A stretch of 64,000 bases of DNA from a virus, in the IMG/VR virus record IMGVR_UViG_3300046163_000090, positions 53,478-117,477 of that record; one strand, 5' to 3'. Position numbers and translations under genes: made by a program. The notes beneath the pieces were generated by a model. That model made no database searches. It was not told where the DNA came from and saw only the letters and a list, made by a program, of their open reading frames with translations. This document shows positions 37,211 through 58,123 of this stretch, piece by piece (positions within the stretch are counted from its first letter, which is position 1; every line of letters starts with the position of its first letter).

Positions 37211-37222
37211 ATCACTTTGTGC

Positions 37223-37251
37223 TTGCAATTCACTAAAAAATTTCTTAGAGT
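37223..37251 (+). promoter_or_regulatory. sigma70-type early promoter
   Basis: TTGCAA-17-TAGAGT; ATG at 37260. Confidence 0.7.
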
Positions 37252-37259
37252 ATACTTAT

Positions 37260-37448
37260 ATGACAAAGACAACAAAATTCAAAAAGGGTGATGTCCTAAT
37301 CTCACGAGACAAAAAAGTCTTCCAATTTATCCAAGCTATCGAACATGAAGATCTCGGTACTATCGCAATGGTTCGCCCGTATCGCACCAATCGCAAGGTT
37401 GGCATCCGTTTTGAGGATGTAAGAATTCATCCACTTTTTACAAAATAA
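37260..37448 (+). CDS. small SH3-like hypothetical protein
   Basis: MTKTTKFKKGDVL; C-terminal HPLFTK resembles NPLLAK of the preceding gene. Confidence 0.65.
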   Translation: MTKTTKFKKGDVLISRDKKVFQFIQAIEHEDLGTIAMVRPYRTNRKVGIRFEDVRIHPLFTK

Positions 37449-37460
37449 TTATCTTTTTTC

Positions 37461-37489
37461 TTGCAATTAACTAAAAAATTTCTTAAAGT
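37461..37489 (+). promoter_or_regulatory. sigma70-type early promoter (leaderless)
   Basis: TTGCAA-17-TAAAGT; ATG 6 nt later. Confidence 0.7.
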
Positions 37490-37495
37490 AATACT

Positions 37496-37738
37496 ATGAT
37501 AAACAACAATAACACACTCACACAAGTCAGGAAACAATTAGACTCCAAGCTCGATCTTGGGCTCGCACTCTCTAAGGCAGAAGGCAATCTAAACTTTTTG
37601 GCTCAGCAATCAAATTCTAATGATTCAGAAATTGGAATCACTGAAGGCATGGCAATCATGGACTCTTTGCACGCAGTACAACAAGCACGCAAGGCATGGC
37701 AAGACATTCTGCACAATGAAGTTGCAGATAGAAAATAA
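37496..37738 (+). CDS. hypothetical protein
   Basis: 80-aa ORF directly after a promoter. Confidence 0.7.
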   Translation: MINNNNTLTQVRKQLDSKLDLGLALSKAEGNLNFLAQQSNSNDSEIGITEGMAIMDSLHAVQQARKAWQDILHNEVADRK

Positions 37739-38169: not shown

Positions 38170-38236
38170 TAAGTTGCTACCTATCAGCGACTTAGGGAAG
38201 CCTGGCTGCCATAAGTACTTGGTAATCAATGAGTTG
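38170..38236. repeat. 67-bp dyad element E1
   Basis: taagttgctacctatcagcgactta-gggaagcctggctgcca-taagtacttggtaatcaatgagttg. Confidence 0.85.
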
Positions 38237-38247
38237 TACAACAACTG

Positions 38248-38458
38248 AGGCCCGCCCGTAGTAGAACGATTCTATTTGTCGACTACGGTACCAGGCCCGC
38301 CCGTAGTAGAACGATTCTATTTGTCGACTACGGTACCAGGCCCGCCCGTAGTAGAACGATTCTATTTGTCGACTACGGTACCAGGCCCGCCCGTAGTAGA
38401 ACGATTCTATTTGTCGACTACGGTACCAGGCCCGCCCTGGGTATGGTATTGTTATTTG
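38248..38458. repeat. 45-bp tandem array A (4 identical copies plus a degenerate 31-bp end)
   Basis: Unit aggcccgcccgtagtagaacgattctatttgtcgactacggtacc at 38248, 38293, 38338 and 38383. Confidence 0.95.
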
Positions 38459-38544
38459 AGGCCCGCAAAAAAACTTTGTTTTTGTGAATAACTTAAGTGC
38501 TTTTTTCTTGCAATTAGCTTATGCCTATGCTAGGTTATACTTAT

Positions 38545-38718
38545 ATGACAAACGAAATTCAAACACATCTCACAAAATTAGGAATCGACAAGTTCATCGA
38601 AGACAATGAACTTCAGCTTGTGGTCTGCCTTCATGCTGATCATATGCTTTGGGAATGCCCAGGTGGTCACCTGTGGAATATTCAAATGATAAAAGATGCC
38701 GCAGATAAAAGTTTATAA
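38545..38718 (+). CDS. hypothetical protein
   Basis: Follows TTGCAA-17-TAGGTT (38508-38536); start reassigned to MTNEIQ. Confidence 0.65.
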   Translation: MTNEIQTHLTKLGIDKFIEDNELQLVVCLHADHMLWECPGGHLWNIQMIKDAADKSL

Positions 38719-38770
38719 TTAGCCTTTTTTTGCTTGCAATAAAACCATTAAACTGCTAACTTATACTTAT

Positions 38771-38971
38771 ATGACAGATAATGACTCACTCGCCCGTACT
38801 GCTCACGCCTTCGGTATCACTGATGTTGAATTCCAAGCTCAACAAAAAGAGCTTGCGCGCCTCGCTCGCCTCGAAAAGATAATCGCTGACATCAGGAATA
38901 GTGACGAATCTGCCGAGATGCCCGAAGTGCATCGCAATCATGAAGAACCAAGCTTTGACTTATTCAACTAA
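38771..38971 (+). CDS. hypothetical protein
   Basis: Follows TTGCAA-17-TAACTT (38734-38762). Confidence 0.7.
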   Translation: MTDNDSLARTAHAFGITDVEFQAQQKELARLARLEKIIADIRNSDESAEMPEVHRNHEEPSFDLFN

Positions 38972-38993
38972 TAACAATAAACATTATAACACT

Positions 38994-39179
38994 ATGAAAG
39001 ACACCCAACACAAAGGAACACTAGCAAAAGTTAATATTGTCGATGCAAAGACAGGCGAAACCGTTCAAGAGAATGTGATGATGCAGGTTGAAGAATGCAA
39101 AACAATAGACCAAATAAATAAAGAGTTGGCAATGTTTTTCTTGCCAAGACGCTTTGAATTGGTAGAATGGGTAAAATAG
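38994..39179 (+). CDS. hypothetical protein
   Basis: Start reassigned to MKDTQHK to avoid a long overlap. Confidence 0.6.
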   Translation: MKDTQHKGTLAKVNIVDAKTGETVQENVMMQVEECKTIDQINKELAMFFLPRRFELVEWVK

Positions 39180-39191
39180 AAAGGAATTAAA

Positions 39192-39419
39192 ATGTCAGAT
39201 AACACATACAATGGATGGGCAAATTGGGCAACTTGGAACGTCGCCCTTTGGTTAGGAAACGATGAAGGCTTGTATAGGCTTTCCCGCAGGTTCGTGAGTT
39301 ACAAGGATCTTGCTGACGCTCTTGAGGAAGTGGGCACCCTCAGCACTCCTGACGGAGCAAGCTACAAGGATGAAGATCTTGACACCTATGCGCTTGATGA
39401 ATGGCTTATGGACGAATAA
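39192..39419 (+). CDS. conserved phage protein (YNGWxNxxTWNVALW family)
   Basis: YNGWANWATWNVALWLGNDEGLY..TPDG; AAGGA SD; stop 4 nt before E2. Confidence 0.8.
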   Translation: MSDNTYNGWANWATWNVALWLGNDEGLYRLSRRFVSYKDLADALEEVGTLSTPDGASYKDEDLDTYALDEWLMDE

Positions 39420-39423
39420 TCCA

Positions 39424-39490
39424 TAAGTCGTTGATTATTAGGGGTTTAGGCGAGCCAGGCTGCCATAAGTACTTGGTAATCAGTGAATTA
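39424..39490. repeat. 67-bp dyad element E2
   Basis: taagtcgttgattattaggggttta-ggcgagccaggctgcca-taagtacttggtaatcagtgaatta. Confidence 0.85.
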
Positions 39491-39501
39491 TAAAACTCAT
39501 A

Positions 39502-39667
39502 AGGCCCGCCCGTAGTATAACTGCGCTATTTGTCGACTACGGCACCAGGCCCGCCCGTAGTATAACTGCGCTATTTGTCGACTACGGCACCAGGCCCGCC
39601 CGTAGTATAACTGCGCTATTTGTCGACTACGGCACCAGGCCCGCCCGTAGTATAACTGCGCTATTTG
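39502..39667. repeat. 45-bp tandem array B (3 identical copies plus a 31-bp partial)
   Basis: Unit aggcccgcccgtagtataactgcgctatttgtcgactacggcacc at 39502, 39547 and 39592; partial at 39637. Confidence 0.95.
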
Positions 39668-39729
39668 AGGTCTATAAAAAAAACGAAAAAAAGCTTGCAA
39701 TTAGTTTCTGACTTTGCTAGATTACTTAT

Positions 39730-39921
39730 ATGACTAAAAAAGAAATGCTCACCGAAATTACAACACTTCGCAAAGCTCTTCAAAGCTCTGCTGATTTCAC
39801 CCCTACTGATCGCATAGTAATCCGTAACGCGATTGGCGATCTTCAAGACAAGATTGATCTCCTCGACTTTCAAGAGTACGAGGATATTGATTATGGATAC
39901 CATGCCCAGTACGACTTATAA
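39730..39921 (+). CDS. hypothetical protein
   Basis: ATG 6 nt after TTGCAA-17-TAGATT (39695-39723). Confidence 0.7.
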   Translation: MTKKEMLTEITTLRKALQSSADFTPTDRIVIRNAIGDLQDKIDLLDFQEYEDIDYGYHAQYDL

Positions 39922-39926
39922 TAAAC

Positions 39927-40130
39927 ATGAAATACCTACTTACTAAATCAGACGACGCACATATAATCATTGCACAAGTCGATCACTCATTCAAGAAAAG
40001 ATCGCCACATGAGTTCTTCGTTAGTCGAGACTTTTTAAATGTCAATGTTAAAAATGGAAATTTTACTGACATTACCGACAGGGTAGATTGGGATGGCAAA
40101 GTTTGGATACTAACAGAAGATATGACATAA
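39927..40130 (+). CDS. hypothetical protein
   Basis: 67 aa; its TAA is the first 3 nt of E3. Confidence 0.65.
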   Translation: MKYLLTKSDDAHIIIAQVDHSFKKRSPHEFFVSRDFLNVNVKNGNFTDITDRVDWDGKVWILTEDMT

Positions 40131-40194
40131 GTCTTTGATAATCAAGGGCTTAGGCCCGCCAGGCCGCCCTAAGTCGTTGACATTCAGCTACTTA
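40128..40194. repeat. 67-bp dyad element E3
   Basis: taagtctttgataatcaagggctta-ggcccgccaggccgccc-taagtcgttgacattcagctactta. Confidence 0.9.
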
Positions 40195-40249
40195 CAACAA
40201 AAATACATAGAGACACCATATGTCTCTGGGTATGTGTTATACTGTAGGT

Positions 40250-40576
40250 ATGATTACAATAGAACACATTGACGACCAAACTTTCAACGCCACCGTAGAG
40301 TGGGACATGTACCTCATCGAGGTCGAGGGTACAGTATGGACTGAGCAGGAAGATAACCTGTGGGGTGACCAGGTCGAATCAGTTTCGACCATCGCCCATT
40401 TTGACGCAGTGACCGATATGAAGGTGTCAAGCAAAATGACTGGTGATGAAGTTGAGGTGCTAAACCTAGACTTCGCCGAGCTAGTCGTTCACCAGCTCAA
40501 GGAAGCTATCTGTGAGGAGGTCTACTCAGAGGAGTGTCAAGTAGATTATTCGCCATACTATCATGATATGGCGTAA
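40250..40576 (+). CDS. acidic hypothetical protein, copy 1
   Basis: Start reassigned to MITIEHIDD, 6 nt after the extended -10 TGTTATACT; its TAA is the first 3 nt of E4. Confidence 0.75.
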   Translation: MITIEHIDDQTFNATVEWDMYLIEVEGTVWTEQEDNLWGDQVESVSTIAHFDAVTDMKVSSKMTGDEVEVLNLDFAELVVHQLKEAICEEVYSEECQVDYSPYYHDMA

Positions 40577-40640
40577 GTCGTTGGCTGCCAGTAACTTAGG
40601 GCAGCCAGGCTGCCATAAGCCACTAATAATAAGCAACTTA
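40574..40640. repeat. 67-bp dyad element E4
   Basis: taagtcgttggctgccagtaactta-gggcagccaggctgcca-taagccactaataataagcaactta. Confidence 0.9.
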
Positions 40641-40693
40641 TGACATTTCCTTCTTGGCTCGCGGAGCTGATCCCTTTTAGGTTTGGCTATTTG

Positions 40694-40879
40694 CTATTTG
40701 ACCTTTTCGAGCTTAATTGGGCGATCAACAAAATATATGTAATCCTGTTTTACTCTTCTGCCCGCGAGCTTAGCTAATTGTAAAGCCTCGCTTTCTCTTC
40801 TAACTTCGTCAACCATTTTGCCAAAAGCAAACACTTGAAACCATTCTTTGAAATTTGGATTTTTTCTTACACTTATCAT
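40694..40879 (-). CDS. hypothetical protein
   Basis: 61-aa ORF in the E4-E5 block. Confidence 0.6.
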   Translation of the reverse strand: MISVRKNPNFKEWFQVFAFGKMVDEVRRESEALQLAKLAGRRVKQDYIYFVDRPIKLEKVK

Positions 40880-40938
40880 TTTATTCTGCCTCCCATATCA
40901 TATAAAATACAAACAACCAATTCATAAACATTAATAAT

Positions 40939-41202
40939 TCAACTATCATCGTAGACTCCTTTCATTTCATCAGATAGACCAATCTCTTTATCTTCTTCGT
41001 CTATCTCTTCGGCTCTGTCTTTGAGTAAATACTGAGCTTCGTCTGATACATCTTCCTTTTCCACTTTTCTCAAGCCATTGTTGAGTACAAAAGTCTCAGC
41101 TTGTAACTCTCCGACTAATTCCATAATCTCAGAGTTGGGTCGAAAGTTTTTGGACTCACGATGGGCGTTTGCGATGATTGCGATTCTTTCTTGTTCTGTC
41201 AT
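40939..41202 (-). CDS. acidic hypothetical protein
   Basis: 87-aa ORF. Confidence 0.65.
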   Translation of the reverse strand: MTEQERIAIIANAHRESKNFRPNSEIMELVGELQAETFVLNNGLRKVEKEDVSDEAQYLLKDRAEEIDEEDKEIGLSDEMKGVYDDS

Positions 41203-41216
41203 AATAGTAATGTAGT

Positions 41217-41414
41217 TTAGTTTGAGTATAATGTCAAGTCTTCGTTTTCTAATTGTATACGAACATACGGCTCAGAGTATTCATCCACTTCCATGTCTGC
41301 ATAACTACAATCAATAAACTCACCAATATCTTGCAAGCCATTGTTGTTTGCAAAAGTGTTAACCTTAAACGAGCAAATATCATTGCCGTAGTAATCTTCA
41401 ATAACTATCTTCAT
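41217..41414 (-). CDS. hypothetical protein
   Basis: 65-aa ORF. Confidence 0.6.
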   Translation of the reverse strand: MKIVIEDYYGNDICSFKVNTFANNNGLQDIGEFIDCSYADMEVDEYSEPYVRIQLENEDLTLYSN

Positions 41415-41438
41415 GTTTTTAATATAGTTTAGTTGTGG

Positions 41439-41810
41439 TTAGTAGTCAAGCCCTAAATCTCTTTTAAATTCTGCTTTGTCTTCGATTAGCTCATCAACCC
41501 AAACACTTCCTTCGACTTGAGCTTTTGCCATTAAGATAGATACTTGAGCAGGAGATTGCCAACCGACAACATCGTCAGAAGGAGAAAGTGGAATCATTCC
41601 ATTTTTGTCGAAAATTGCAACTTCGTATAAATCTTCTTCCACGCTTCCATATAATCCTCTTCTGCCGTCTTTACCTGCAACAACAGAAATTTCTAGTCCG
41701 TTACCAAAGTCAAGCCTTGCTTGGACTGCGTCATCAGAACCACGATGTGGCTTAAAATCAAGATTGTCAAAGTTTAATAATTCGTTCATTGGTATATTGT
41801 TGTTAATCAT
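41439..41810 (-). CDS. conserved phage protein (FxNGxxxSV..LYEVA..DDVxGW family)
   Basis: FGNGLEISVV..GLYG..LYEVAIF..DDVVGW; leaderless after TTGCAT-17-TAATGT (41845-41817). Confidence 0.8.
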   Translation of the reverse strand: MINNNIPMNELLNFDNLDFKPHRGSDDAVQARLDFGNGLEISVVAGKDGRRGLYGSVEEDLYEVAIFDKNGMIPLSPSDDVVGWQSPAQVSILMAKAQVEGSVWVDELIEDKAEFKRDLGLDY

Positions 41811-41875
41811 ATAAACACATTAAAACTTTTTGCCAATTAATGCAAGAAAAAAGTGAAGTTTTTTACGTTTTGTTG

Positions 41876-41942
41876 TAAGTTGTTGGTTGTTAAGCATTTG
41901 TGGCAGCCTGGCTGCCGTAAGTCGTTGAGGCCCAGCGACTTA
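41876..41942. repeat. 67-bp dyad element E5
   Basis: taagttgttggttgttaagcatttg-tggcagcctggctgccg-taagtcgttgaggcccagcgactta. Confidence 0.88.
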
Positions 41943-41944
41943 GG

Positions 41945-42124
41945 TTAATATCCGAGCCATTCCAAAACTTTCTGTGCTGAGTATCCGTCCTTGTCGCCCA
42001 TGTCCTCGAAAAATTCGCAAATCTCTTCATTAGAAGTGATTCCGTGCCTTGCTAATTCTCGCAAAGCACGATCTTGCGAGATATCAATTCCTTGGGCTGA
42101 GTCGTAATAAGTTTCTTCGTTCAT
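41945..42124 (-). CDS. hypothetical protein (59 aa, not in ORF track)
   Basis: MNEETYYDSAQGIDISQDRALRELARHG..AQKVLEWLGY; stop 2 nt from E5. Confidence 0.7.
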   Translation of the reverse strand: MNEETYYDSAQGIDISQDRALRELARHGITSNEEICEFFEDMGDKDGYSAQKVLEWLGY

Positions 42125-42139
42125 GGTAGTAATGTAGCA

Positions 42140-42868
42140 TTAATGGGCTAAATATGCAATACCTTTTTTGCATCCCTTGATGAAGCATAAGTTGCAATTA
42201 TGAGCTTGGCAAGTTGCAAGAATCTTGCCGTCCTCGCCCTTAACATAAGTTGCAGGGCAAACAAAATGTCCGTCTTGCTCTGCTTTTGTCTTGCTAGTGT
42301 AAACTGAAGTGCCCGCGTCGAGTCCGTCAACTTGTGGAGCTGGCTCATCTACATAAATAGCGCTTGGCTTAATGTTTACATTTTTAAGGCTTGCCAACTT
42401 CTGCAAGTGTGGAAGCTGAGAGTCGCGTTTCCATTCACGAGTTGGAAACCAAAAGCGAATTGTTGGGAATTGTTCGCAAATGCGAATCCACGCGGCAATG
42501 TAGCGAGGGGAAAACAAATCGCCTGAATCATGAACGCGAAAAAGATCTGTGTTTGTTTTCTTGAGCTTTTTCTTGTTGCCTTGCTTGTCGAAATACTTTG
42601 CGCGAATTTGCTTGCACATTGCATCAACAAAAGTGTCGCCATTGTCTTGATGTAGTGACTTTGTTATGAGATTCGCCTTGCCTTGCAAACTTGCCTTGAC
42701 ATTGGAAAACATATAAAAGCCTTTGCAAGCATAGCAAGAATCACAAATAAACTTTTTTGCTTTGTCCTTAATCTTTGCCAATAGCTGCGCGGCAGGGCAA
42801 TACTTGAAAGCTGGAATGTTGAACGAATAGCAAGGCATCTTGCTTGGATTGGATAGTAAGTTAATCAT
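42140..42868 (-). CDS. Gp88-like protein
   Basis: SKMPCYSFNIPA..CP..CDSCYACKG..FRVHDSGD..FWFPTR..CPA..C..C..C; leaderless after TTGCAA-17-TATATT. Confidence 0.8.
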   Translation of the reverse strand: MINLLSNPSKMPCYSFNIPAFKYCPAAQLLAKIKDKAKKFICDSCYACKGFYMFSNVKASLQGKANLITKSLHQDNGDTFVDAMCKQIRAKYFDKQGNKKKLKKTNTDLFRVHDSGDLFSPRYIAAWIRICEQFPTIRFWFPTREWKRDSQLPHLQKLASLKNVNIKPSAIYVDEPAPQVDGLDAGTSVYTSKTKAEQDGHFVCPATYVKGEDGKILATCQAHNCNLCFIKGCKKGIAYLAH

Positions 42869-42906
42869 ATGTAGAATATAGTTTAATTGTTTTGCAATTG
42901 CAAGCT

Positions 42907-43098
42907 TTAAAGCACTAAATCTTCAAAAAAGTCAGGCTCTAGACCGAACTCACTTGAGAAGGAATCTTCCCACTCAAAAAGGCTTCCGCCTTGTCCAACA
43001 TCCATCCACATTTCGGAAGTAAATGCAGTAACTTGATCCTCCGCCTCTTCACGGGAAAGTCCGTCGCGGGTCATTAAGATTTCAATTATTCGTTTCAT
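42907..43098 (-). CDS. hypothetical protein
   Basis: Start reassigned to MKRIIEILMTRDGLSREEA..FGLEPDF, just after a promoter. Confidence 0.7.
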   Translation of the reverse strand: MKRIIEILMTRDGLSREEAEDQVTAFTSEMWMDVGQGGSLFEWEDSFSSEFGLEPDFFEDLVL

Positions 43099-43163
43099 AA
43101 GTATACTATCGCAAAAAAGAGTACTGAATGCAAGCAAAAAGTGAATTAAATTGCATTTTGTTG

Positions 43164-43230
43164 TAAGTCGTTGTCTAACAGTCACTTGCGGCAGCCAGGC
43201 TGCTGTAAATCGTTGAGGCCCAGTAACTTA
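43164..43230. repeat. 67-bp dyad element E6 (divergent, head-to-head junction)
   Basis: taagtcgttgtctaacagtcacttg-cggcagccaggctgctg-taaatcgttgaggcccagtaactta, flanked by TTTTGTTG and CAACAAAA. Confidence 0.9.
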
Positions 43231-43285
43231 CAACAAAAATACATAGAGACACCATATGTCTCTGGGTATGTGTTATACTGTAGGT

Positions 43286-43612
43286 ATGATTACAATAGAA
43301 CACATTGACGACCAAACTTTCAACGCCACCGTAGAGTGGGACATGTACCTCATCGAGGTCGAGGGTACAGTATGGACTGAGCAAGAAGATAACCTGTGGG
43401 GTGACCAGGTCGAATCAGTTTCGACCATCGCCCATTTTGACGCAGTGACCGATATGAAGGTGTCAAGCAAAATGACTGGTGATGAAGTTGAGGTGCTAAA
43501 CCTAGACTTCGCCGAGCTAGTCGTTCACCAGCTCAAGGAAGCTATCTGTGAGGAGGTCTACTCAGAGGAGTGTCAAGTAGATTATTCGCCATACTATCAT
43601 GATATGGCGTAA
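43286..43612 (+). CDS. acidic hypothetical protein, copy 2 (identical protein to 40250..40576)
   Basis: Same protein; one synonymous CAG/CAA difference. Confidence 0.75.
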   Translation: MITIEHIDDQTFNATVEWDMYLIEVEGTVWTEQEDNLWGDQVESVSTIAHFDAVTDMKVSSKMTGDEVEVLNLDFAELVVHQLKEAICEEVYSEECQVDYSPYYHDMA

Positions 43613-43676
43613 GTCGTTGGCTGCCAGCAACTTAGGGCAGCCAGGCTGCCACAAGTCGTTAAGTATCAGCTACTTA
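43610..43676. repeat. 67-bp dyad element E7
   Basis: taagtcgttggctgccagcaactta-gggcagccaggctgcca-caagtcgttaagtatcagctactta. Confidence 0.9.
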
Positions 43677-43692
43677 CGAAAGTGTCAAGCAT

Positions 43693-43725
43693 AAAAAAAC
43701 CCCCTCCCGATATTCAGGAGGGGGC
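43693..43725 (-). terminator. intrinsic terminator for the DUF932 block
   Basis: Minus strand CCCCCTCC-loop-GGAGGGGG followed by T7. Confidence 0.8.
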
Positions 43726-43741
43726 TAACTAATAACACTAT

Positions 43742-44605
43742 TTACATCTCAACTAATTCATTTTCAACTACCGCAATATTTGCAACTTCTTCGGAGTGAC
43801 TTGCAATATCGAAGTCAACGACATTGTCAAGAACAGAATGAAGGGCTTGGGAGCGGTTAGGTAAAGCGGTGAGATTGCCCTTGTAAATCTCAGTAAAAGC
43901 ATTGTAAAGAGAATTAACATTGCGATCCCAAAACTCAGGGTGATCTGAAGATTCCCATTGATCAACTACATCCATAACTTTAGATTTTGGTACAGCTCCT
44001 GCCTTGCAAGCATTAATGATAATATCATTAGCCTCAGCGTTTTTGATTTCTCTGCTTCTGTAAGCATTGATGCGCTCATCTTGACCATGCCAAAAGTTAA
44101 AAAGCTGACCAATTGCACGATTGATGGTGAAATTAAGGTCTTGCAAAATGTTCATCGTGTGTCTACGAGCAAGTTTAATGGTGTTAGTGAAGATTAAGTT
44201 GTCGCAAACAAAAGGAGCATCCCCTGCACAAATGCCCGCAGGGAAACTTTTGTCGTGAGCATTACGAAGACCAATAATAGTCCCTCGGTCTGATTGCTCA
44301 CGGCTTGCATGGTCAACTTGAAACAAACCAAAGTACCTCTGACCATCACGAGCAAGGTTGTGGCATTCGTCAACAATGCTGAAACCTGAATCCTCAAGAG
44401 CGTTACGAGTTTTGCGAATGACCGCCTTGTGTGAAATAGGTTGGTGAGATACTGAAAGCTCGCCTGTCCTTTTGTTTGGTTGAGAGCGAAATGTGCGAGG
44501 CGGTTGACTTACTTGGTAAACTTCGCCTAAAGAAACGATAGTATGCTCGCCTCCGCAAATTCTGAGATTATTCTTTTTGGTGGATGTGTTTTGTGCGTTA
44601 TTCAT
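43742..44605 (-). CDS. DUF932-family protein
   Basis: HQPISH, IGLRNAHDKS..AG..FVCDNL.F, RRHT and LYNAFTE motifs. Confidence 0.8.
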   Translation of the reverse strand: MNNAQNTSTKKNNLRICGGEHTIVSLGEVYQVSQPPRTFRSQPNKRTGELSVSHQPISHKAVIRKTRNALEDSGFSIVDECHNLARDGQRYFGLFQVDHASREQSDRGTIIGLRNAHDKSFPAGICAGDAPFVCDNLIFTNTIKLARRHTMNILQDLNFTINRAIGQLFNFWHGQDERINAYRSREIKNAEANDIIINACKAGAVPKSKVMDVVDQWESSDHPEFWDRNVNSLYNAFTEIYKGNLTALPNRSQALHSVLDNVVDFDIASHSEEVANIAVVENELVEM

Positions 44606-44644
44606 AGTTTTATATAATATAGATGTTAATTATTCTGTCAATAC

Positions 44645-44878
44645 TTAATTACGAGAAATATCATTTTCTTTATCCTCGTACATTTTATAATATGCCTCGG
44701 CTTGACTTGCTATGTCTTTGAATGCAATGCCTATGAGTGAGACTGTCTCTAAATCGTCTTGATCTAATTTTTCGGTTTGAGGAAGAATGAATTTTTGAAA
44801 TAAGAAGTCCATACCTTCAGCCATTACATCTTCGAAGTTTGGTCTTTGTGGTGATTGAAATTCGGGATTAATGTTCAT
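44645..44878 (-). CDS. hypothetical protein
   Basis: 77 aa; AGGAG SD. Confidence 0.65.
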   Translation of the reverse strand: MNINPEFQSPQRPNFEDVMAEGMDFLFQKFILPQTEKLDQDDLETVSLIGIAFKDIASQAEAYYKMYEDKENDISRN

Positions 44879-44991
44879 ACTAATTGCTCCTTGTGTTTAA
44901 GTTTTCTGTGGATGATTTTGTTCTTCATTTTATGTGGGCGGGATTTGGTGAAGAGAACCGCTTTTCTGATCTTTATCTCTCTCGTTTTCAT
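44875..44991 (-). CDS. 38-aa basic peptide ending RKLKHK (not in ORF track)
   Basis: MKTREIKIRKAVLFTKSRPHKMKNKIIHRKLKHKEQLV; first gene after the promoter next to E8; ATGA overlap with 44878. Confidence 0.6.
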   Translation of the reverse strand: MKTREIKIRKAVLFTKSRPHKMKNKIIHRKLKHKEQLV

Positions 44992-45056
44992 ATGTACATA
45001 CTAAGCTACTTTTATAATTAACACAAGAAAAAAATGAAATAAAATGCATTCTGTTG

Positions 45057-45123
45057 TAAGTCGTTGTATATCAAGGACTTTCGCGGGCCTGGTCGCCGTA
45101 AGTTATTGGAAGTCAAGGGTTTA
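45057..45123. repeat. 67-bp dyad element E8
   Basis: taagtcgttgtatatcaaggacttt-cgcgggcctggtcgccg-taagttattggaagtcaagggttta. Confidence 0.85.
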
Positions 45124-45124
45124 C

Positions 45125-45155
45125 AAAAAACCCCTCGCCCATTAAGAGCGAGGGG
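45125..45155 (-). terminator. intrinsic terminator abutting E8
   Basis: Minus strand CCCCTCGC-loop-GCGAGGGG followed by T6. Confidence 0.8.
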
Positions 45156-45173
45156 CCACAGACCTACAACAAA

Positions 45174-45335
45174 CTATTTGTTCAAAGGCATTTTACCCTG
45201 CTTGATTTCGAGGTCCTCGAGTAATCGATCATGCAGCCTTTTCTGCCTATAATATTCGGGAGTATTTTCCCCGTACAACTCACGCACTGCAAGTTGGTAA
45301 CCCATTTTTCTGACTTTACTTTCTAAGTTTTCCAT
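45174..45335 (-). CDS. hypothetical protein (53 aa, not in ORF track)
   Basis: MENLESKVRKMGYQLAVRELYG..; AAGGAG SD. Confidence 0.55.
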   Translation of the reverse strand: MENLESKVRKMGYQLAVRELYGENTPEYYRQKRLHDRLLEDLEIKQGKMPLNK

Positions 45336-45339
45336 AGTA

Positions 45340-45573
45340 TTAGCTCCTTACCATTGAGATTATTCTGTCGTAACGAAATGAACGCACGGCATTCCTATTG
45401 TAGCAATGAGCCCGAAAGCCAGCGACAGGGAGACCTTCCTTCATGTTACCAAATTCGTTTCTGTGCTTTGGTTTAGAGATGGTATACATTGCCGTAGTAC
45501 CTTCTTGAGTTTTGTATACCACTTGATATACAGGGTTGAACAGGTTTGCAATTTTAGCTAGTAGCTTCTTCAT
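45340..45573 (-). CDS. small WYL/SH3-like protein
   Basis: C-terminal RSFRYDRII matches the WYL-type RxFRxDRI motif; start reassigned to MKKLL after an AGGAGG SD. Confidence 0.55.
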   Translation of the reverse strand: MKKLLAKIANLFNPVYQVVYKTQEGTTAMYTISKPKHRNEFGNMKEGLPVAGFRAHCYNRNAVRSFRYDRIISMVRS

Positions 45574-45793
45574 GTTGTGTTTCCTCCTTAAGGGGGTTAA
45601 TGTTGTAGTGATTGTAAGCATCAGTGACTTCTTCAGCTGATTCGAAACTTACAGAAATGATATCTCTCTCGAAATGTGGATTCCAATCGTCGTGGTTCTC
45701 TTCAAAGAACAATTCCCATTGCTCAGTGCCCTCGTTAAAACTTGGTAAATCCAATGGTCTGCCGATGCAGGTTGCTTCTATGTAATTATTCAT
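45554..45793 (-). CDS. hypothetical protein
   Basis: Start reassigned to MNNYIEA after a GGAGG SD. Confidence 0.6.
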   Translation of the reverse strand: MNNYIEATCIGRPLDLPSFNEGTEQWELFFEENHDDWNPHFERDIISVSFESAEEVTDAYNHYNINPLKEETQHEEATS

Positions 45794-45998
45794 TGTCATC
45801 ATCCTCCATAATATAGATTCCAAAATGAGATGCAAGCTCTAAGATCATTTTATCTTTATTGAAATAACGAAAAGCAAAAGTGAGTAAATCTTCTTGCTCT
45901 TTTCCTGTGTGCCCATCTCTAAGCTCGTCATATATCTCAAAGATGTTCATGTTCCAATTCCAACCTTCTACTCTTGATTCAATTTGTGCGTCTGTCAT
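45786..45998 (-). CDS. hypothetical protein
   Basis: 70 aa, in a tightly packed operon. Confidence 0.65.
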   Translation of the reverse strand: MTDAQIESRVEGWNWNMNIFEIYDELRDGHTGKEQEDLLTFAFRYFNKDKMILELASHFGIYIMEDDDNE

Positions 45999-46213
45999 TA
46001 TACTGCCCTCTCGTTTACTTGTTCTAACATTAATTTGAATTGATCGAAAACTTTTTGCTTACTACCTTTAAGCCCAAACTCTTGTTTGACGATAGAATAA
46101 CAAGATCTGCCTCGACTCATTTGTAGTCCTTGGGTCTCAAGCTTTAAACCTCTAAGAAGAGTTTTGTAGCGAAACATTTCGATTTGTTCAGGTGTGTCTA
46201 ATACTGTTGTCAT
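45998..46213 (-). CDS. hypothetical phage protein
   Basis: LKLETQGLQMSRGRS..KQEFGLKGSKQKV. Confidence 0.7.
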   Translation of the reverse strand: MTTVLDTPEQIEMFRYKTLLRGLKLETQGLQMSRGRSCYSIVKQEFGLKGSKQKVFDQFKLMLEQVNERAV

Positions 46214-46227
46214 GATTTTTCCTTGTG

Positions 46228-46455
46228 TTATAGTTGTGCTGATTGAAAAGATGATTCTATCCTAAGCTGATTTTGCAAGCTTGTCAAGTCTGTAATGATA
46301 TCATCTAAAACTTCTTCTGCGCTTTCAGTGGTGATGTAATCAACCCCTAAACTCTCAGCCTTCTTTAGGTTAATTGGATCTGTAGGATTGCACCAACGAA
46401 GATTGCCATGAGTGATTTGCATTATCATTTGCCTAATCTCTCCCTGCGTCATCAT
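46228..46455 (-). CDS. hypothetical protein
   Basis: 75 aa, in a tightly packed operon. Confidence 0.6.
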   Translation of the reverse strand: MMTQGEIRQMIMQITHGNLRWCNPTDPINLKKAESLGVDYITTESAEEVLDDIITDLTSLQNQLRIESSFQSAQL

Positions 46456-46634
46456 TGTTTTGTCCTTTCTGCTTTGATCTTTGCATTTTGGTCGTCAACA
46501 ATTTTAGCTAAACGTTTTAATTCAAACATAACATTTTGCTTGTCTTCGTATCCTGCTTTTGGGTTCTTCAGTACCTCAATCATTGGAAGAATGAGTGCTG
46601 ACCATGTTGGTGTCATATCTATTGTTTCTGTCAT
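46452..46634 (-). CDS. hypothetical protein
   Basis: TIDMTPTW motif; 60 aa. Confidence 0.65.
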   Translation of the reverse strand: MTETIDMTPTWSALILPMIEVLKNPKAGYEDKQNVMFELKRLAKIVDDQNAKIKAERTKQ

Positions 46635-46648
46635 AATATAAAACTAAA

Positions 46649-46852
46649 CTATCTGAGTGCTGTTGTCAACTCATTTTCAAACTTTTTTGCTTCAACTAAT
46701 TCTTTAAGGTCATAGCTGATAGTGCATAAACTTTCGTTAATGCCATTCATTACCTTGATGAGATCTGCCATGTTTCCATAACGACGATTTTCTAATAGTT
46801 CGTCGGCAACTCCATCAATTGCACATTCTATTCTTTTTAATTGTTCTTTCAT
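46649..46852 (-). CDS. hypothetical coiled-coil protein
   Basis: 67 aa. Confidence 0.6.
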   Translation of the reverse strand: MKEQLKRIECAIDGVADELLENRRYGNMADLIKVMNGINESLCTISYDLKELVEAKKFENELTTALR

Positions 46853-46853
46853 T

Positions 46854-47009
46854 TTAATGTTTGCCTTTCTTTGTAAAATTTTCTAAATAATATGTAACCC
46901 GTTCAATAGCTTCATTTTGTTTTAGTGTTTCCTCTTTCATTTCAGGGTCGTCAATAACATTTTGATTGGCTAGGTCTAATACAATTTCTAATGCTTCTGT
47001 GATATTCAT
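46854..47009 (-). CDS. hypothetical protein (51 aa, not in ORF track)
   Basis: MNITEALEIVLDLANQN..; fills the gap and has an ATGA overlap with 47006. Confidence 0.6.
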   Translation of the reverse strand: MNITEALEIVLDLANQNVIDDPEMKEETLKQNEAIERVTYYLENFTKKGKH

Positions 47010-47419
47010 GATATATATGCTGTTACTTTGTTGTGTGTTAATGAAACTTCATCTGCGTAGTATACAAAACTTTCATCCTTCTTGTCAACAAAAGTTTCAT
47101 ACTTGTATGGATTGTATGTTACCTCAACTTCCCTAGTGATAACTTGGGGATTGCGAGATACATTCTCAGCATCCTGAAGATAGCCCTTGACGAAAGCATG
47201 GACATTCTTACGCTTCTCGCGAAGCACTTTCTCTCTACCCTTGACATCGACATGAAAATAGCAATCCCATAATCCAATAGCATGATCCTTTGGGATGTGT
47301 GCCTTGACTAATCCATGTTGCTTGATGCTCCAACAATCCTTGTGAAGATTCTTGTAAACATATACGGGACGATTCTTTTTAATCGTGTATCTTGGGTCGT
47401 GTTGGTTTCTTAAGATCAT
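47006..47419 (-). CDS. conserved phage protein (VYxNLH..KRKNVHAFV..YNPY family)
   Basis: VYVYKNLHKDCWSI..GREKVLREKRKNVHAFVKG..VTYNPYK..FV. Confidence 0.8.
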   Translation of the reverse strand: MILRNQHDPRYTIKKNRPVYVYKNLHKDCWSIKQHGLVKAHIPKDHAIGLWDCYFHVDVKGREKVLREKRKNVHAFVKGYLQDAENVSRNPQVITREVEVTYNPYKYETFVDKKDESFVYYADEVSLTHNKVTAYIS

Positions 47420-47484
47420 AAGAATACAGTAATCAATTTTTGTACTGATTGCAAGAAAAAAGTTAGTTAAATTGCATTTTGTCG

Positions 47485-47551
47485 TAAGTTGTTTACAGTA
47501 AGGGACTTACGGCAGCCTGGCCGCCGCAACCCGTTGGTATTCAACGAGTTG
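47485..47551. repeat. 67-bp dyad element E9
   Basis: taagttgtttacagtaagggactta-cggcagcctggccgccg-caacccgttggtattcaacgagttg. Confidence 0.85.
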
Positions 47552-47573
47552 CGTAATAATTTAGCAGTTCAGC

Positions 47574-47711
47574 TTAGCTGTTAAAATGCTTGGCTATTAA
47601 ACCTCTAAGAGCAACAGGAGCTTCGCGATAGTATTTTCTTTGACCGAAAGACCAGGTTAATTGTTCGCCATCGATAAGTCCGTTAGTAGTGTTGTTGCTT
47701 GCGTTGTTCAT
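47574..47711 (-). CDS. 45-aa hypothetical protein, sole gene between E9 and E10 (not in ORF track)
   Basis: MNNASNNTTNGLIDGEQLTWSFGQRKYY..; GAAAGGA SD and a TTGACA-17-TAATGT promoter. Confidence 0.6.
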   Translation of the reverse strand: MNNASNNTTNGLIDGEQLTWSFGQRKYYREAPVALRGLIAKHFNS

Positions 47712-47805
47712 TTTTTTCCTTTCGTTAGGGTTATTGTTAATATACATATACATTAGTCGATTAATGGCCTCATGTCAAACTTTTTTTCATCTTTTTTTAA
47801 TTTTT

Positions 47806-47872
47806 TAAATCGTTGACTATCAAGGGTTTCCAGCAGCCTGGCCGCCACAAGTCGTTGATGGACAGCACTTTA
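47806..47872. repeat. 67-bp dyad element E10
   Basis: taaatcgttgactatcaagggtttc-cagcagcctggccgcca-caagtcgttgatggacagcacttta. Confidence 0.85.
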
Positions 47873-48071
47873 TGAAATTTTTAATTCATATTCAATTTTA
47901 ATTTAATTTAATTTTATATCATATATATTATATTTGAGACTTATTTATTTGTTATTGATTTGTTCCCTATTGATTTGTATATTGTATACTGTATTTATTG
48001 TTATGATCTCCAGCCAGCAATAAAACAAACAGTGCAAATTAAGGTCCACATGATTGAGTCTAGATATTCCA

Positions 48072-48414: not shown

Positions 48415-48435
48415 ATGTACAATGAAACAAAATAT

Positions 48436-48738
48436 GTGTGGGGAAGGATTACTGTATACCTCCAACTTTTCGGCGCGAACATCAGTTCATGGATTACCTA
48501 CTTCGAACTACAGACTAGACATGGTATTGTCGTTTGGCTCATCCGATTGGACTCTACCAACCCCACCACAGGGATCTGCATACCTTAGCCCGCTCACGAC
48601 AGGCTTATTCGAGTCACCCACAGGAAGGATTATAAGCCCTTCCAAAGTGAATTGAGTCATGGTCATCCGCTCGCTACCCATTCGGCATCTGATCTTACGA
48701 TTCTCACCGACCTTAGCTTCGTCCGATGCTGACTCAAA
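48436..48738 (-). ncRNA. candidate ~300-nt structured non-coding RNA
   Basis: GC-rich island with no credible ORF and many helices (TTGAGTCA/TGACTCAA, GGAAGGG/TCCTTCC, TGTGGG/CCCACA, AGCCTG/CGGGCT). Has its own promoter, a boxA-like motif and a terminator. Confidence 0.75.
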
Positions 48739-48967: not shown

Positions 48968-49210
48968 TTATTTATTTAGACTCCTTAATTCTCGCAATAA
49001 TTCTCTTATTTTAAAAAAGCTTTTATCGGGCGGAAACAATTTAGCATGAGCCTCAGAGTCGTGCGCTCTATATAAATCATCCACAAATTCTTCCACTTTA
49101 ACTAATTTAATTAACATTAATTCTTTTTTAGTTAATTTTTCATATAACTCTTCATTAGTTGCAAATAAACTAACATCTTCTTTATCAATAATTTTCTTTA
49201 TCTCTGTCAT
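48968..49210 (-). CDS. hypothetical protein
   Basis: Start reassigned to MTEIKK after a TTGACT promoter. Confidence 0.6.
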   Translation of the reverse strand: MTEIKKIIDKEDVSLFATNEELYEKLTKKELMLIKLVKVEEFVDDLYRAHDSEAHAKLFPPDKSFFKIRELLRELRSLNK

Positions 49211-49249
49211 AGTATATATATTAGTGAAGTTTAAGATAGAAGTCAAGGA

Positions 49250-49675
49250 CTATCGACACTCGTTGAATACTTTCATGTTTTTGTCATGACGCAGTTTCTT
49301 GAGAGCTTTAGCCTCGATCTGACGCACTCGCTCACGAGTAAGACCGACGGCAGTGCCTATCTCCTGCAATTTAAACGAACGATTAGGTTGGAATATGGTT
49401 GCCCATGTTCTCATCGCTTGTAGTTTATCGTCAACTTTATCGCCCTCAAAATCGGGTATATCTATTTTGCGCGACTGAATATCATATAACATTTCATTAA
49501 TGTATTCATCATTTTCGATAGCTTCCTTCCTTTGTTGCAATAGTCGAATAATAACAAAGCGATTTTCTTGAAATAATTTTAATTCATCATCATTTAATTC
49601 ATAATAATCTACAAATCCTTGATCAATTTCTTTTGAATTTTGTGCGATATGGTCTTTAAGTTCTTGGTCTGTCAT
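49250..49675 (-). CDS. sigma70 region 4-like HTH protein
   Basis: C-terminal LQEIGTAVGLTRERVRQIEAKALKKLRH closely matches RpoD region 4.2. Confidence 0.85.
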   Translation of the reverse strand: MTDQELKDHIAQNSKEIDQGFVDYYELNDDELKLFQENRFVIIRLLQQRKEAIENDEYINEMLYDIQSRKIDIPDFEGDKVDDKLQAMRTWATIFQPNRSFKLQEIGTAVGLTRERVRQIEAKALKKLRHDKNMKVFNECR

Positions 49676-57817: not shown

Positions 57818-58123
57818 TTAGTTTTGATTGCCTGTCAATAGTTTTTTTAAATTAAATTCGGGATGATGTAATTCGTGATGACAATTATGGCAAAGCAACT
57901 GACACTTGTTTGACTCCTTCAAGACCCTGTTCCATTCGTAATTAGCTATATTTCGCATTTCTACATTAAATGATTTTGTGCTAGGATCAACATGATGGAA
58001 AGTTAATGCAGTTAAATTTTTGTTATAGCCACATATTTCACAACATCCACCTTTTAATTTAACTAAATTTAGTTTTCGTTTAATTCCTCTTCGTCTTTGT
58101 CTAGCATAAGATTTTTCTTTCAT
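57818..58123 (-). CDS. HNH endonuclease
   Basis: KGGCCEICGY..LTFHHVDP..KCQLLCHNCHHELH. Confidence 0.88.
   Translation of the reverse strand: MKEKSYARQRRRGIKRKLNLVKLKGGCCEICGYNKNLTALTFHHVDPSTKSFNVEMRNIANYEWNRVLKESNKCQLLCHNCHHELHHPEFNLKKLLTGNQN

What the first reader, a model, noticed from the sequence alone, without database searches (positions are those of the whole stretch)
38170..47872. Ten exactly spaced 67-bp triple-palindrome elements divide the early region into self-promoted gene cassettes: a candidate phage cassette-shuffling system
SEEN: ten copies start at 38170, 39424, 40128, 40574, 41876, 43164, 43610, 45057, 47485 and 47806, all with 25+17+25 spacing and no indels. Each 25-bp box is YAAGTCGTTG-N5-CARNNACTTA (10-bp arms around a variable 5-nt core). 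The 17-bp centre is N-GGCAGCC-W-GGCTGCC-N, with CCWGG on the dyad axis in all ten. All copies lie between gene blocks and none interrupts a credible gene. Each block has its own sigma70-type promoter near one element and ends close to the next. All three gene-strand switches in the interval coincide with elements (E4, E6, E7). KNOWN: arms around a short variable core resemble tyrosine-recombinase core sites. Integron attC arrays and T4-type PeSL cassettes are precedents for repeat-bounded modules, but these elements lack attC RYYYAAC/GTTRRRY ends and the genes face both ways. INFERENCE: these are recombination or protein-binding sites that let early genes be inserted, duplicated, deleted or inverted as modules. 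No recombinase is encoded in this window.
Basis: partly seen in the sequence, partly recalled or inferred. Interest (0 to 1): 0.92.

Follow-up and report, generated by a model that had tools for sequence, protein, structure and literature searches.

The report
Double-palindrome joints between phage early cassettes
An uncultured marine phage separates its early gene units with a 67-base element made of two symmetric protein-docking words around a GC-rich core, and related phages have reordered, flipped, copied and swapped the gene units at these elements, much as T4-type phages do at their "PeSL" cassettes.

Summary
Ten 67-bp elements (25+17+25, no indels) are the only copies in the 117-kb record.

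Each box holds two inverted 10-bp half-sites (TAAGTnnyTG) around a fixed 5-bp spacer. Across 122 distinct elements from this phage and 19 related loci, the arms do not covary. They therefore look like protein half-sites, not hairpins.

The centre is about 82% GC. Its length is fixed within a genome (16-37 bp across the family) and differs between lineages.

Elements sit between a terminator and an early sigma70-type promoter, usually 30 or 27 bp from the -35 box.

Relatives show cassette transposition, inversion, duplication and replacement bounded by elements. Breakpoints are not at one fixed position. No recombinase gene was found. The 5-nt box cores rarely match (6 of 190 pairs).

Best reading: a double operator at early promoters that also serves as a seam for homologous recombination. 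This is a new variant of PeSL-type shuffling.

The scan met the same element family before on other DNA (e1-5859911).

The parts
38170..38236 (.). E1: box-centre-box element, followed by an 11-bp gap and a 45-bp tandem array, then + strand promoters
   Evidence: (D4, D2)
39424..39490 (.). E2: element followed by a second 45-bp array. In some seawater strains the element plus array is replaced by 36 other bases, or the array alone is missing
   Evidence: joints 39419->39714 in X16; 39470->39687 in X12
40128..40194 (.). E3: upstream of + strand cassette c4. The stop codon of the gene ending at 40130 lies in its first arm
40574..40640 (.). E4: at the convergent junction c4(+)/c5(-). Its first box and centre belong to the duplicated block
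41876..41942 (.). E5: 30 bp upstream of the - strand promoter at 41817-41845
   Evidence: (D7)
43164..43230 (.). E6: divergent junction. TTGCAT (-) lies 30 bp to its left (43128-43133), and the + strand c4 copy lies to its right
   Evidence: (D7)
43610..43676 (.). E7: convergent junction of the c4 copy (+) and c7 (-), followed by the c7 terminator
45057..45123 (.). E8: between the c8 terminator (45129-45157) and the c7 promoter (44998-45026, 30 bp away)
47485..47551 (.). E9: 30 bp upstream of the - strand promoter at 47426-47454
47806..47872 (.). E10: 27 bp upstream of TTGACA-17-TAATGT (-) at 47750-47778, with an AT-rich repeat tract to its right
40190..40615 (+). Duplicated block, copy A. It runs from the last bases of the fourth arm of E3, through the 118-aa gene, to the end of the centre of E4
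   Evidence: 2 mismatches in 426 columns to copy B; identical 118-aa products
43226..43651 (+). Duplicated block, copy B (E6 to E7)
43698..43726 (-). Intrinsic terminator of cassette c7, directly beside E7
   Evidence: 13 pairs, T tail
45129..45157 (-). Intrinsic terminator of cassette c8, directly beside E8
   Evidence: 12 pairs, T tail
41839..41942 (-). 104-nt promoter-plus-element module. It recurs at 43127-43230, 45020-45123 and 47448-47551
   Evidence: family D7, 65-79% identity

Best explanation
Each element is a composite boundary module of the early region. Two 25-bp symmetric docking sites (four TAAGTnnyTG half-sites) for an unidentified dimeric or tetrameric DNA-binding protein flank a stiff GC-rich spacer. 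The spacer's length and sequence are kept alike within a genome. The element sits just after the terminator of one unit and at a fixed distance upstream of the host-type promoter of the next. It therefore most likely regulates or insulates early promoters (inferred, not shown). Because the same 67-100 bp (element plus promoter leader) recurs at every unit boundary, ordinary homologous recombination and gene conversion between copies move, flip, copy and replace whole units. This can happen within one genome or between co-infecting relatives. The comparative pattern is shown; the recombination pathway is inferred. Conversion between copies would also keep the centres alike within a lineage while they drift apart between lineages.
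For: Four independent half-sites. In 122 distinct elements, positions 2, 3 and 9 of every arm are invariant or nearly so (A2 in all four arms, A3 121-122 of 122, T9 122 of 122). Arm-to-arm complementarity equals that of partner-swapped controls: z = -0.2 and 0.0 for arms of one box, 0.0 for the inner arms, -2.3 for the outer arms. The 5-bp spacer never varies in length in any box found.

Fixed geometry to promoters. Modal distance from element to the -35 box is 30-31 bp for 16/17-bp centres (40 of 94 promoter-like matches), 26-27 bp for 22/23-bp centres (25 of 37), and 30 bp for 28-bp centres (8 of 18). In the window it is 30, 30, 30 and 27 bp.

Polarity relative to the promoter. In 109 elements with one nearby promoter, the promoter-proximal inner arm prefers GC at positions 6-7 (45) over CG (22). 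The other arms prefer CG.

Placement. Elements lie between terminator and promoter.

Restriction to the early region. All copies lie in one stretch of the record. In four complete relatives of about 200 kb, all 31 box matches with at most 1 mismatch lie in one 6.5-9.3-kb array.

Shuffling at elements. Cassette c6 has 7 different left and 9 different right neighbours in 15 genomes. c7/c8 are swapped in L003 and L005. c45 is found at 5 different adjacencies. c9 is inverted in L001. HSP ends lie within 15 bp of an element in 644 of 3073 cases (21%), against 7.4% expected.

Variable breakpoints, as homologous exchange predicts. The window's duplication ends inside the fourth arm on the left and at the centre/third-arm border on the right. 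L001's duplication spans both whole elements. Box 1 is slightly more alike when the left cassette is shared (0.712 vs 0.679), and box 3 when the right one is shared (0.744 vs 0.698). Seawater contigs show joints between promoter repeats as well.

No recombinase gene was found. No DNA-binding or recombinase family passed the curated cut-off in 40 window proteins scanned against Pfam, apart from one Sigma70_r4 match.
Against: No binding protein is identified, so 'operator' is inference from anatomy. The sigma-region-4-like protein beside the array has no homologue in any fetched relative. The most widely shared neighbour, a DUF932 protein (42 of 84 box-bearing loci), gave only noise-level fold matches.

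Only 184 of 424 distinct elements have a crude promoter match within 75 bp. E4 and E7 have no adjacent promoter.

All ten elements differ in centre class between the window and L001, although the cassettes between them are 69-98% identical and in the same order. Boxes of 25 bp at about 70% identity are short substrates for generic homologous recombination. Such complete replacement therefore hints at something more directed.

79% of HSP ends lie away from elements. Some gene gains and losses are not element-bounded, for example the skip 46847->47005.
Confidence: 0.55

Rival explanations
1. A dedicated, element-targeted recombination or gene-conversion system. A phage or host enzyme (a nuclease or recombinase not recognisable by sequence) acts on the boxes or the centre. 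Cassettes are exchanged at the elements, and centres are rewritten to the resident type. This would be a functional analogue of integron cassettes in a lytic phage.
For: The architecture resembles an attC site: two simple sites of inverted words with a 5-bp spacer around a variable centre (this resemblance is recalled, not tested against attC sequences). The centre class is genome-specific. It follows the flanking PhoH gene better than the cassette genes do: 5 changes on 29 rows for PhoH, against 9 on 33, 8 on 25 and 5 on 18 rows for cassette genes. Shuffled labels give about 15, 16, 12.5 and 8.7 changes. All ten elements are replaced between the window and L001 while cassette order is kept. 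In L001 the duplication ends within 8 and 2 nt of the outer element edges. An HNH endonuclease-like gene (57818-58123) and a weak PD-(D/E)XK-like ORF beside the array (48968-49246; 19.7 bits, below the 21.2 cut-off) are present.
Against: No integrase, resolvase or Y1 transposase match was found in the record. Outer and inner arms show no complementarity beyond consensus, so no folded attC-like site is selected. The 5-nt cores are identical in 6 of 190 pairs. Junction positions differ between events, and joints also occur at promoters. The fixed distance to the -35 box argues for a regulatory role.
Confidence: 0.17
2. The elements act as folded single strands, either RNA or extruded DNA. Three hairpins would serve as terminators, RNA-stability or processing signals, or cruciforms.
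For: Boxes and many centres are dyad-symmetric. Dyad pairs in the centre exceed self-shuffles for centre lengths 16, 17, 21, 23 and 28 (z = 2.8-7.8). Some relatives have clear centre hairpins with flipped loops (L173). An earlier scan report on a sister genome read the centre as a transcription stop signal (e1-5859911).
Against: Arm pairing equals partner-swapped controls in 122 elements. The centre shows no partner-swap excess (z = -2.9 to 1.0). None of the ten elements was flagged as terminator-like, and they lack T tails, while canonical terminators stand beside E7 and E8. No Rfam family matches an element. The same element serves units on both strands.
Confidence: 0.1
3. The elements are miniature mobile elements (REP/BIME- or MITE-like) spread by a transposase.
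For: The design has paired palindromic units around a short centre. Presence or absence of E2 is polymorphic among seawater strains. The bare 25-bp palindrome also occurs in an unrelated high-copy repeat of two gut MAGs.
Against: There is no Y1 transposase in the record. Copies are confined to one array of about 10 kb, not dispersed. The position relative to promoters is fixed. No target-site duplications were noticed in the flanks (by eye).
Confidence: 0.05
4. The elements serve DNA-level functions unrelated to transcription: replication origins, partition sites, or signals that pace DNA entry into the cell.
For: In four complete relatives the array lies 9-34 kb from a contig end, and an AT-rich repeat tract adjoins E10. 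Baculovirus hr palindromes (recalled) combine enhancer, origin and recombination roles.
Against: Contig ends of metagenome assemblies need not be physical ends. No replication or partition gene was found nearby. Ten sites at unit boundaries with promoter-locked spacing fit regulation better.
Confidence: 0.05

Closest known systems
PeSL (promoter-early stem-loop) cassettes of T4-type phages (Arbiol et al. 2010, PMC2839356, abstract and sections 13 and 16 read; Comeau et al. 2014, PMC4122927, abstract read)
   Same: Both are repeated composite regulatory sequences at the borders of small, mostly orphan early genes in a hyperplastic region. Both have strong sigma70-type promoters. In both, differences between relatives (insertion, deletion, replacement) map to the repeats. 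In both, recombination between copies is proposed to shuffle self-promoted units.
   Different: A PeSL is the promoter itself plus one stem-loop that terminates transcription. Here a separate 67-bp element of four non-covarying half-sites and a GC-rich centre lies between a canonical terminator and the promoter, at a fixed 27-30 bp. Its centre is lineage-specific in length. The phage is not T4-type: it has a 4252-aa tape-measure gene. Mini-circles were not tested.
SPBRE, the SPbeta repeated element bound by the repressor MrpR (PMC10516654, abstract and passages read)
   Same: A conserved short element recurs in intergenic regions of one phage genome. It was predicted in silico as a regulator site long before its binding protein was found.
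   Different: SPBRE is a single 15-bp motif in a temperate Bacillus phage, bound by a recombinase-fold repressor. Here the site is a double 25-bp palindrome with a GC-rich centre, no binding protein is known, and no lysogeny genes were seen.
Integron attC sites (features recalled, no paper read here)
   Same: Both have two pairs of inverted short words with a 5-bp spacer, flanking a centre of variable length and sequence. Both bound gene cassettes, and arrays within one genome are homogeneous.
   Different: The attC core words are absent. No arm complementarity is selected. Cassettes carry their own promoters and face both ways. No integrase was found.
Baculovirus homologous regions (hr) (recalled; PMC6669502 seen only in a search listing)
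   Same: Both are dispersed imperfect palindromes that serve early transcription and are hot spots of rearrangement.
   Different: The hr elements are tandem clusters in an insect virus, with a known binding protein (IE1, recalled). There is no sequence or evolutionary relation.

Membership tests
PeSL cassettes | A sigma70-type early promoter is part of the repeated motif | tested here: met
   A 104-nt promoter-plus-element family occurs at E5, E6, E8 and E9 (D7). Promoter matches lie 30 bp from E5, E8 and E9 and 27 bp from E10. The promoter lies outside the 67-bp element proper, and E4 and E7 have none.
PeSL cassettes | A stem-loop in the motif acts as terminator or attenuator | tested here: inconclusive
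   No element was flagged terminator-like, and none has a T tail. Separate canonical terminators stand beside E7 and E8. Function was not assayed.
PeSL cassettes | Differences between close relatives map to the motifs | tested here: met
   HSP ends lie at elements in 21% of cases against 7.4% expected.
PeSL cassettes | Mini-circles are formed by exchange between neighbouring motifs | not testable with these tools
   Only assembled contigs of public runs could be laid.
Integron attC / IntI | The folded strand pairs the outer words with each other and the inner words with each other | tested here: not met
   Outer arms z = -2.3 and inner arms z = 0.0 against partner-swapped controls, in 122 elements.
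Integron attC / IntI | A tyrosine-recombinase integrase is encoded beside the array | tested here: not met
   There is no PF00589 match in the 117-kb record at E <= 0.1. The record is about 84% complete, so absence from the whole genome is not proven.
Integron attC / IntI | Cassettes are promoterless and co-oriented | tested here: not met
   Units have their own promoters and lie on both strands.
dif/lox-type tyrosine-recombinase core site | Two inverted arms flank a short overlap region that is identical between partner sites | tested here: not met
   The spacer is 5 nt, and only 6 of 190 box pairs share it in either orientation.
REP/BIME with RAYT | A Y1 (IS200-like) transposase is present and copies are dispersed genome-wide | tested here: not met
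   There is no PF01797 match. Copies are confined to one array.
Dispersed phage operators (SPBRE/MrpR, stoperators) | A repeated site lies in intergenic regions near promoters | tested here: met
Dispersed phage operators (SPBRE/MrpR, stoperators) | A cognate DNA-binding regulator is encoded by the phage | tested here: inconclusive
   No candidate emerged from Pfam or PHROGs scans. The DUF932 fold search gave only noise-level rows.

The most novel reading that the evidence does not exclude
The elements are the sites of a dedicated, recombinase-gene-free cassette exchange system of lytic marine phages. An unrecognised nuclease or structure-specific enzyme acts on the conserved boxes. Early-gene cassettes then flow between co-infecting lineages, while the lineage-specific GC-rich centre acts as an identity tag that is rewritten to the resident type. 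This would be a phage counterpart of the integron, with a different chemistry.
Probability: 0.15. Interest if true: 0.9.

Novelty: new variant of a known kind. Interest (0 to 1): 0.55.

Why it matters
Early 'host-takeover' regions are the most variable and least understood parts of large phage genomes. This element family is widespread. The stretch itself is held by 16 runs labelled as seawater (15) or freshwater (1) metagenomes, from at least 12 studies, at 64-98% of its sampled words.

The element gives a sharply defined DNA word with four half-sites and promoter-locked spacing. That word could be used to fish out the unknown regulator of early transcription in an uncultured phage group.

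The element also marks, to the base, the seams at which these phages trade accessory genes. The genome-specific centre that evolves in concert is an unexplained feature. It could report on how often and by what route co-infecting phages recombine.

Tried and rejected
Hairpin or RNA reading. Arm covariation was tested and is absent. The centre shows no partner-swap excess. Rfam found nothing at the elements.

Virion RNA polymerase promoters (N4-like hairpin promoters). I considered this because of two giant genes. They turned out to be a tape-measure protein and a lectin/RCC1-repeat fibre-like protein, so I dropped it.

Search for the binding protein. Pfam scans of 40 window proteins and two PHROGs scans of ten window proteins each (on large structural and rII genes; on array and flanking genes) gave no DNA-binding family. 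The exception is a Sigma70_r4-like protein, which has no homologue in the relatives. The DUF932 protein was folded (pLDDT 76.8). Foldseek against the PDB gave nothing at E <= 0.001. The wide VIA search gave TnsE C-terminal domain at Z 7.9 and T4 MotA C-terminal domain at Z 5.6-5.7, which is within the stated noise range. PDB sequence searches for DUF932, GP88 and the gp82-like protein were empty or chance-level.

Host. No near DNA match and no element match exist in 50,697 phage records. Protein matches are only distant. Full elements occur on one contig binned as Rhodobacteraceae and one binned as Bdellovibrionota. That is weak evidence because binning can be wrong. Most of the other listed genome-contig hits are single; the repeated hits in three MAGs are an unrelated repeat (two gut MAGs) or were not interpreted. 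By my own estimate from uniform base composition, about 35 hits would be expected by chance.

Element orientation inferred from the centre sequence was too noisy to use.

Public runs. Only assembled contigs could be laid, so circles, junction frequencies and transcription could not be read. Parts without cover are not interpreted.

Literature. Searches for the 10-mer word and for phage / intergenic repeats / early promoters / palindromic / modular found no description of this element. The searches cover only the open-access library. Supplementary files were not opened.

Full report
OBSERVATION

The ten elements are present at the stated coordinates and align without gaps as 25+17+25 bases. A matrix built from them finds no further copy in the whole 117,477-bp record; the window is C1:53478-117477. 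A 25-bp box matrix finds exactly the 20 boxes (20.2-32.6 bits), while shuffled genomes give 1-3 hits of at least 10 bits. CCWGG is central in all ten.

The printed consensus is idealised. Only 4 of 20 boxes fit it exactly, and the others carry up to 5 mismatches.

The record is a phage. It encodes a terminase, rIIA/rIIB and PhoH. It also has a 4252-aa tape-measure protein and a 5331-aa fibre-like protein. GC content is 35.6%. No cultured relative appears among 50,697 phage records.

ANATOMY

Each box is two inverted 10-bp arms around a 5-bp spacer. I collected 168 elements (122 distinct) from the window and from 19 of 44 related loci. The loci were found with the GP88-family protein of cassette c6.

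- Every arm reads T-A-A-g-t-n-n-y-T-G, with A2, A3 and T9 essentially invariant.
- The two arms of a box are no more complementary to each other than to arms of other boxes (z = -0.2 and 0.0). The same holds for the inner pair (0.0) and the outer pair (-2.3).
- Selection therefore acts on four half-sites, not on base pairing. This argues for a protein that reads double-stranded DNA and against RNA or cruciform hairpins.

The centre is about 82% GC, against 34% for the boxes. It is dyad-symmetric in some genomes, the window included, but not in all, and it shows no partner-swap covariation.

The centre length is fixed within a genome and differs between genomes. Box-to-box spacing is 42 in the window and five relatives; other relatives have 41/42, 46-48 or 53. 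I then scanned for paired boxes 159 of the 239 loci fetched by the pattern scans: 40 of the 120 genome-contig loci and all 119 viral-contig loci. This gave 335 box pairs in 90 loci, with modes at 41-42, 46-49, 50 (the commonest, 123 pairs), 51-53 and 58-62. Each contig had its own spacing. CCWGG is thus a feature of this genome and a few relatives, not of the family.

PLACEMENT

For minus-strand units the order is always terminator, element, about 30 bp of A/T-rich leader, then the promoter.

- In the window a TTGnnn-16/18-TAnnnT match lies 30 bp from E5, E8 and E9 and 27 bp from E10. E6 has TTGCAT at 30 bp.
- Across the family the element-to--35 distance has sharp modes that depend on centre class: 30-31 bp (40 of 94), 26-27 bp (25 of 37), and 30 bp (8 of 18).
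- Only 184 of 424 distinct elements have such a crude promoter match within 75 bp.
- The four arms differ in their preferred middle bases according to their position relative to the promoter, so the element has a polarity.
- In four complete relatives of 194-214 kb, all 31 box matches with at most 1 mismatch, and 9 of 11 with 2 mismatches, lie in one array of 6.5-9.3 kb near a contig end.

COMPARATIVE TEST OF SHUFFLING

I cut 20 sources at their elements and clustered the segments by reciprocal BLAST coverage. Many segments behave as intact units whose order differs.

- Window: c5|c6|c4|c7|c8|c9.
- L003 and L005: c6|c8|c7.
- L008: c45|c6|c7|c8.
- L009: c6|c7|c45|c8.
- L028: c6|c32|c7, where L003 has c32|c6.

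In 15 non-redundant genomes c6 has 7 left and 9 right neighbours. In L001 cassette c9 and part of c3 are inverted relative to the window. In the window c45 is fused to c8 without an element.

HSP ends between the regions of the 15 sources fall within 15 bp of an element in 644 of 3073 cases (21%), against 7.4% expected. The other 79% lie elsewhere, through divergence and internal indels.

Contigs of four seawater runs show near-identical strains with structural differences:
- E2 plus its array replaced by 36 other bases;
- the array deleted;
- a joint from beside E5 to the c8/c45 border;
- joints between promoter repeats;
- a clean single-gene deletion with no element.

All loci were selected through c6 or through the box pattern, so these counts describe the family and are not an unbiased sample.

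HOW THE EXCHANGES HAPPEN

The most recent event in the window is the c4 duplication, with 2 differences in 426 columns. It starts inside the fourth arm of E3/E6 and ends at the border of centre and third arm of E4/E7. In L001 the same two-copy arrangement spans both whole elements, ending 8 and 2 nt outside them.

The two copies are about 99-100% alike within each genome but 93.5% alike between genomes. This indicates continuing gene conversion or independent events.

Box 1 is slightly more alike when the left cassette is shared, and box 3 when the right one is shared, so exchanges often resolve inside the element.

Several findings fit homologous exchange between repeated regulatory sequences better than a site-specific enzyme:
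- junction positions vary;
- joints also occur at promoter repeats;
- the 5-nt spacers rarely match, 6 of 190 pairs;
- no integrase, resolvase or Y1 transposase match is present.

This is the mechanism proposed for PeSLs (PMC2839356, section 16).

WHAT REMAINS ODD

All ten elements differ in centre class between the window (17 bp) and L001 (28 bp), although the cassettes between them are 69-98% identical and in the same order.

Spacing class follows the flanking PhoH gene (5 changes on 29 rows; shuffles about 15) better than the cassette genes DUF932 (9 on 33; about 16), gp82-like (8 on 25; about 12.5) and GP88 (5 on 18; about 8.7). The left-flank clusters also coincide with class.

So centres mark lineages while cassettes move between them, or centres are homogenised quickly. 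Both need frequent exchange within 25-bp boxes that are only about 70% alike. This keeps a directed mechanism alive as the most novel reading.

THE BINDING PROTEIN IS UNKNOWN

Among 84 box-bearing loci the most shared neighbours are a DUF932 protein (42 loci), PhoH (33) and an L5-gp82-like protein (33). The DUF932 model (pLDDT 76.8) has no clear fold match. A sigma-region-4-like protein beside the array is unique to this genome. An HNH endonuclease-like gene and a sub-threshold PD-(D/E)XK-like ORF are noted, without any link to the elements.

COMPARISON AND VERDICT

The closest known system is the PeSL cassette of T4-type phages. It shares the role of self-promoted units traded at repeated regulatory seams. 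This element differs in several ways. It is a separate, highly ordered four-half-site element with a lineage-specific GC-rich centre. It sits between a canonical terminator and the promoter, at promoter-locked spacing, in a non-T4 phage.

SPBRE/MrpR shows that such in-silico repeated sites can be true repressor sites bound by a recombinase-fold protein (PMC10516654).

Membership in attC, dif/lox-type and REP/RAYT classes fails on tested features.

An earlier report of this scan on another genome (e1-5859911; 25-27-25 elements) described the same family as a double operator around a stop signal. My data agree on the operator-like boxes and the promoter-locked position. They do not support a terminator role for the centre in this genome.

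I rate this a new variant of a known kind, of moderate to good interest.

Noticed in passing
window 48433-48643 (-): A full-length match to the manA RNA motif (RF01745): 81.7 bits against a gathering score of 55.2, E = 6.8e-20. It lies downstream of a perfect TTGACA-17-TATAAT promoter at 48842-48814. This is the 'candidate structured ncRNA' of another first-reader note.
   Followed up: partly
window 38247-38430 and 39503-39670: Two 45-bp tandem arrays (about four copies each) start 11 bp after E1 and E2 and precede + strand promoters. In seawater contigs the second array is missing or replaced in some strains.
   Followed up: partly
window 37215-37267, 37453-37505, 38500-38552, 38726-38778 and the - strand promoters: The early promoters are followed by an ATG only about 8 nt after the -10 box (for example ...TAGAGT ATACTTAT ATG), with no Shine-Dalgarno sequence. 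The early messages may therefore be leaderless or nearly so.
   Followed up: no
G000:C1:30322-43080 (+) and C1:318-16313 (-), outside the window: A 4252-aa tape-measure protein (PhageMin_Tail at its N-terminus) and a 5331-aa protein with Laminin_G_3, Calx-beta and RCC1 repeats. These are unusually large virion genes.
   Followed up: partly
L023:5828-20333: A more distant relative (GP88 about 60% identical) lacks the boxes. It has about ten copies of a different GC-rich repeat upstream of TTGACT-17-TGTCATACT promoters. The design principle recurs with another word.
   Followed up: no
L064, L068, L097, L114, L122, L126; L052, L054, L073, L081, L100, L118: Two gut MAGs (labelled Treponemataceae and Desulfovibrionaceae) carry the bare palindrome TAAGTCTTTG-N5-CAAAGACTTA inside an unrelated high-copy repeat with flanking hairpins, often at contig ends.
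   Followed up: no
L109:1680-1780 and 4530-4630; L112: Complete box-centre-box elements lie on short contigs binned into a Rhodobacteraceae MAG and a Bdellovibrionota MAG. This may be a hint of the host or a binning error.
   Followed up: no
window 57818-58123 (-) and 48968-49246 (-): An HNH endonuclease-like protein of 101 aa (phrog_3106, 4e-24). Also a 92-aa ORF with a sub-threshold PD-(D/E)XK match (19.7 bits, cut-off 21.2) that is conserved beside the array in 15 of 84 loci.
   Followed up: no
window 49250-49675 (-): A 141-aa protein with a Sigma70 region 4 helix-turn-helix (2.7e-10) has no homologue in any fetched relative, although both of its neighbours are conserved.
   Followed up: partly
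window 47880-48000: An AT-rich tract of short direct repeats (aattt/taattt units) lies directly right of E10. In four complete relatives the array lies 9-34 kb from a contig end.
   Followed up: no
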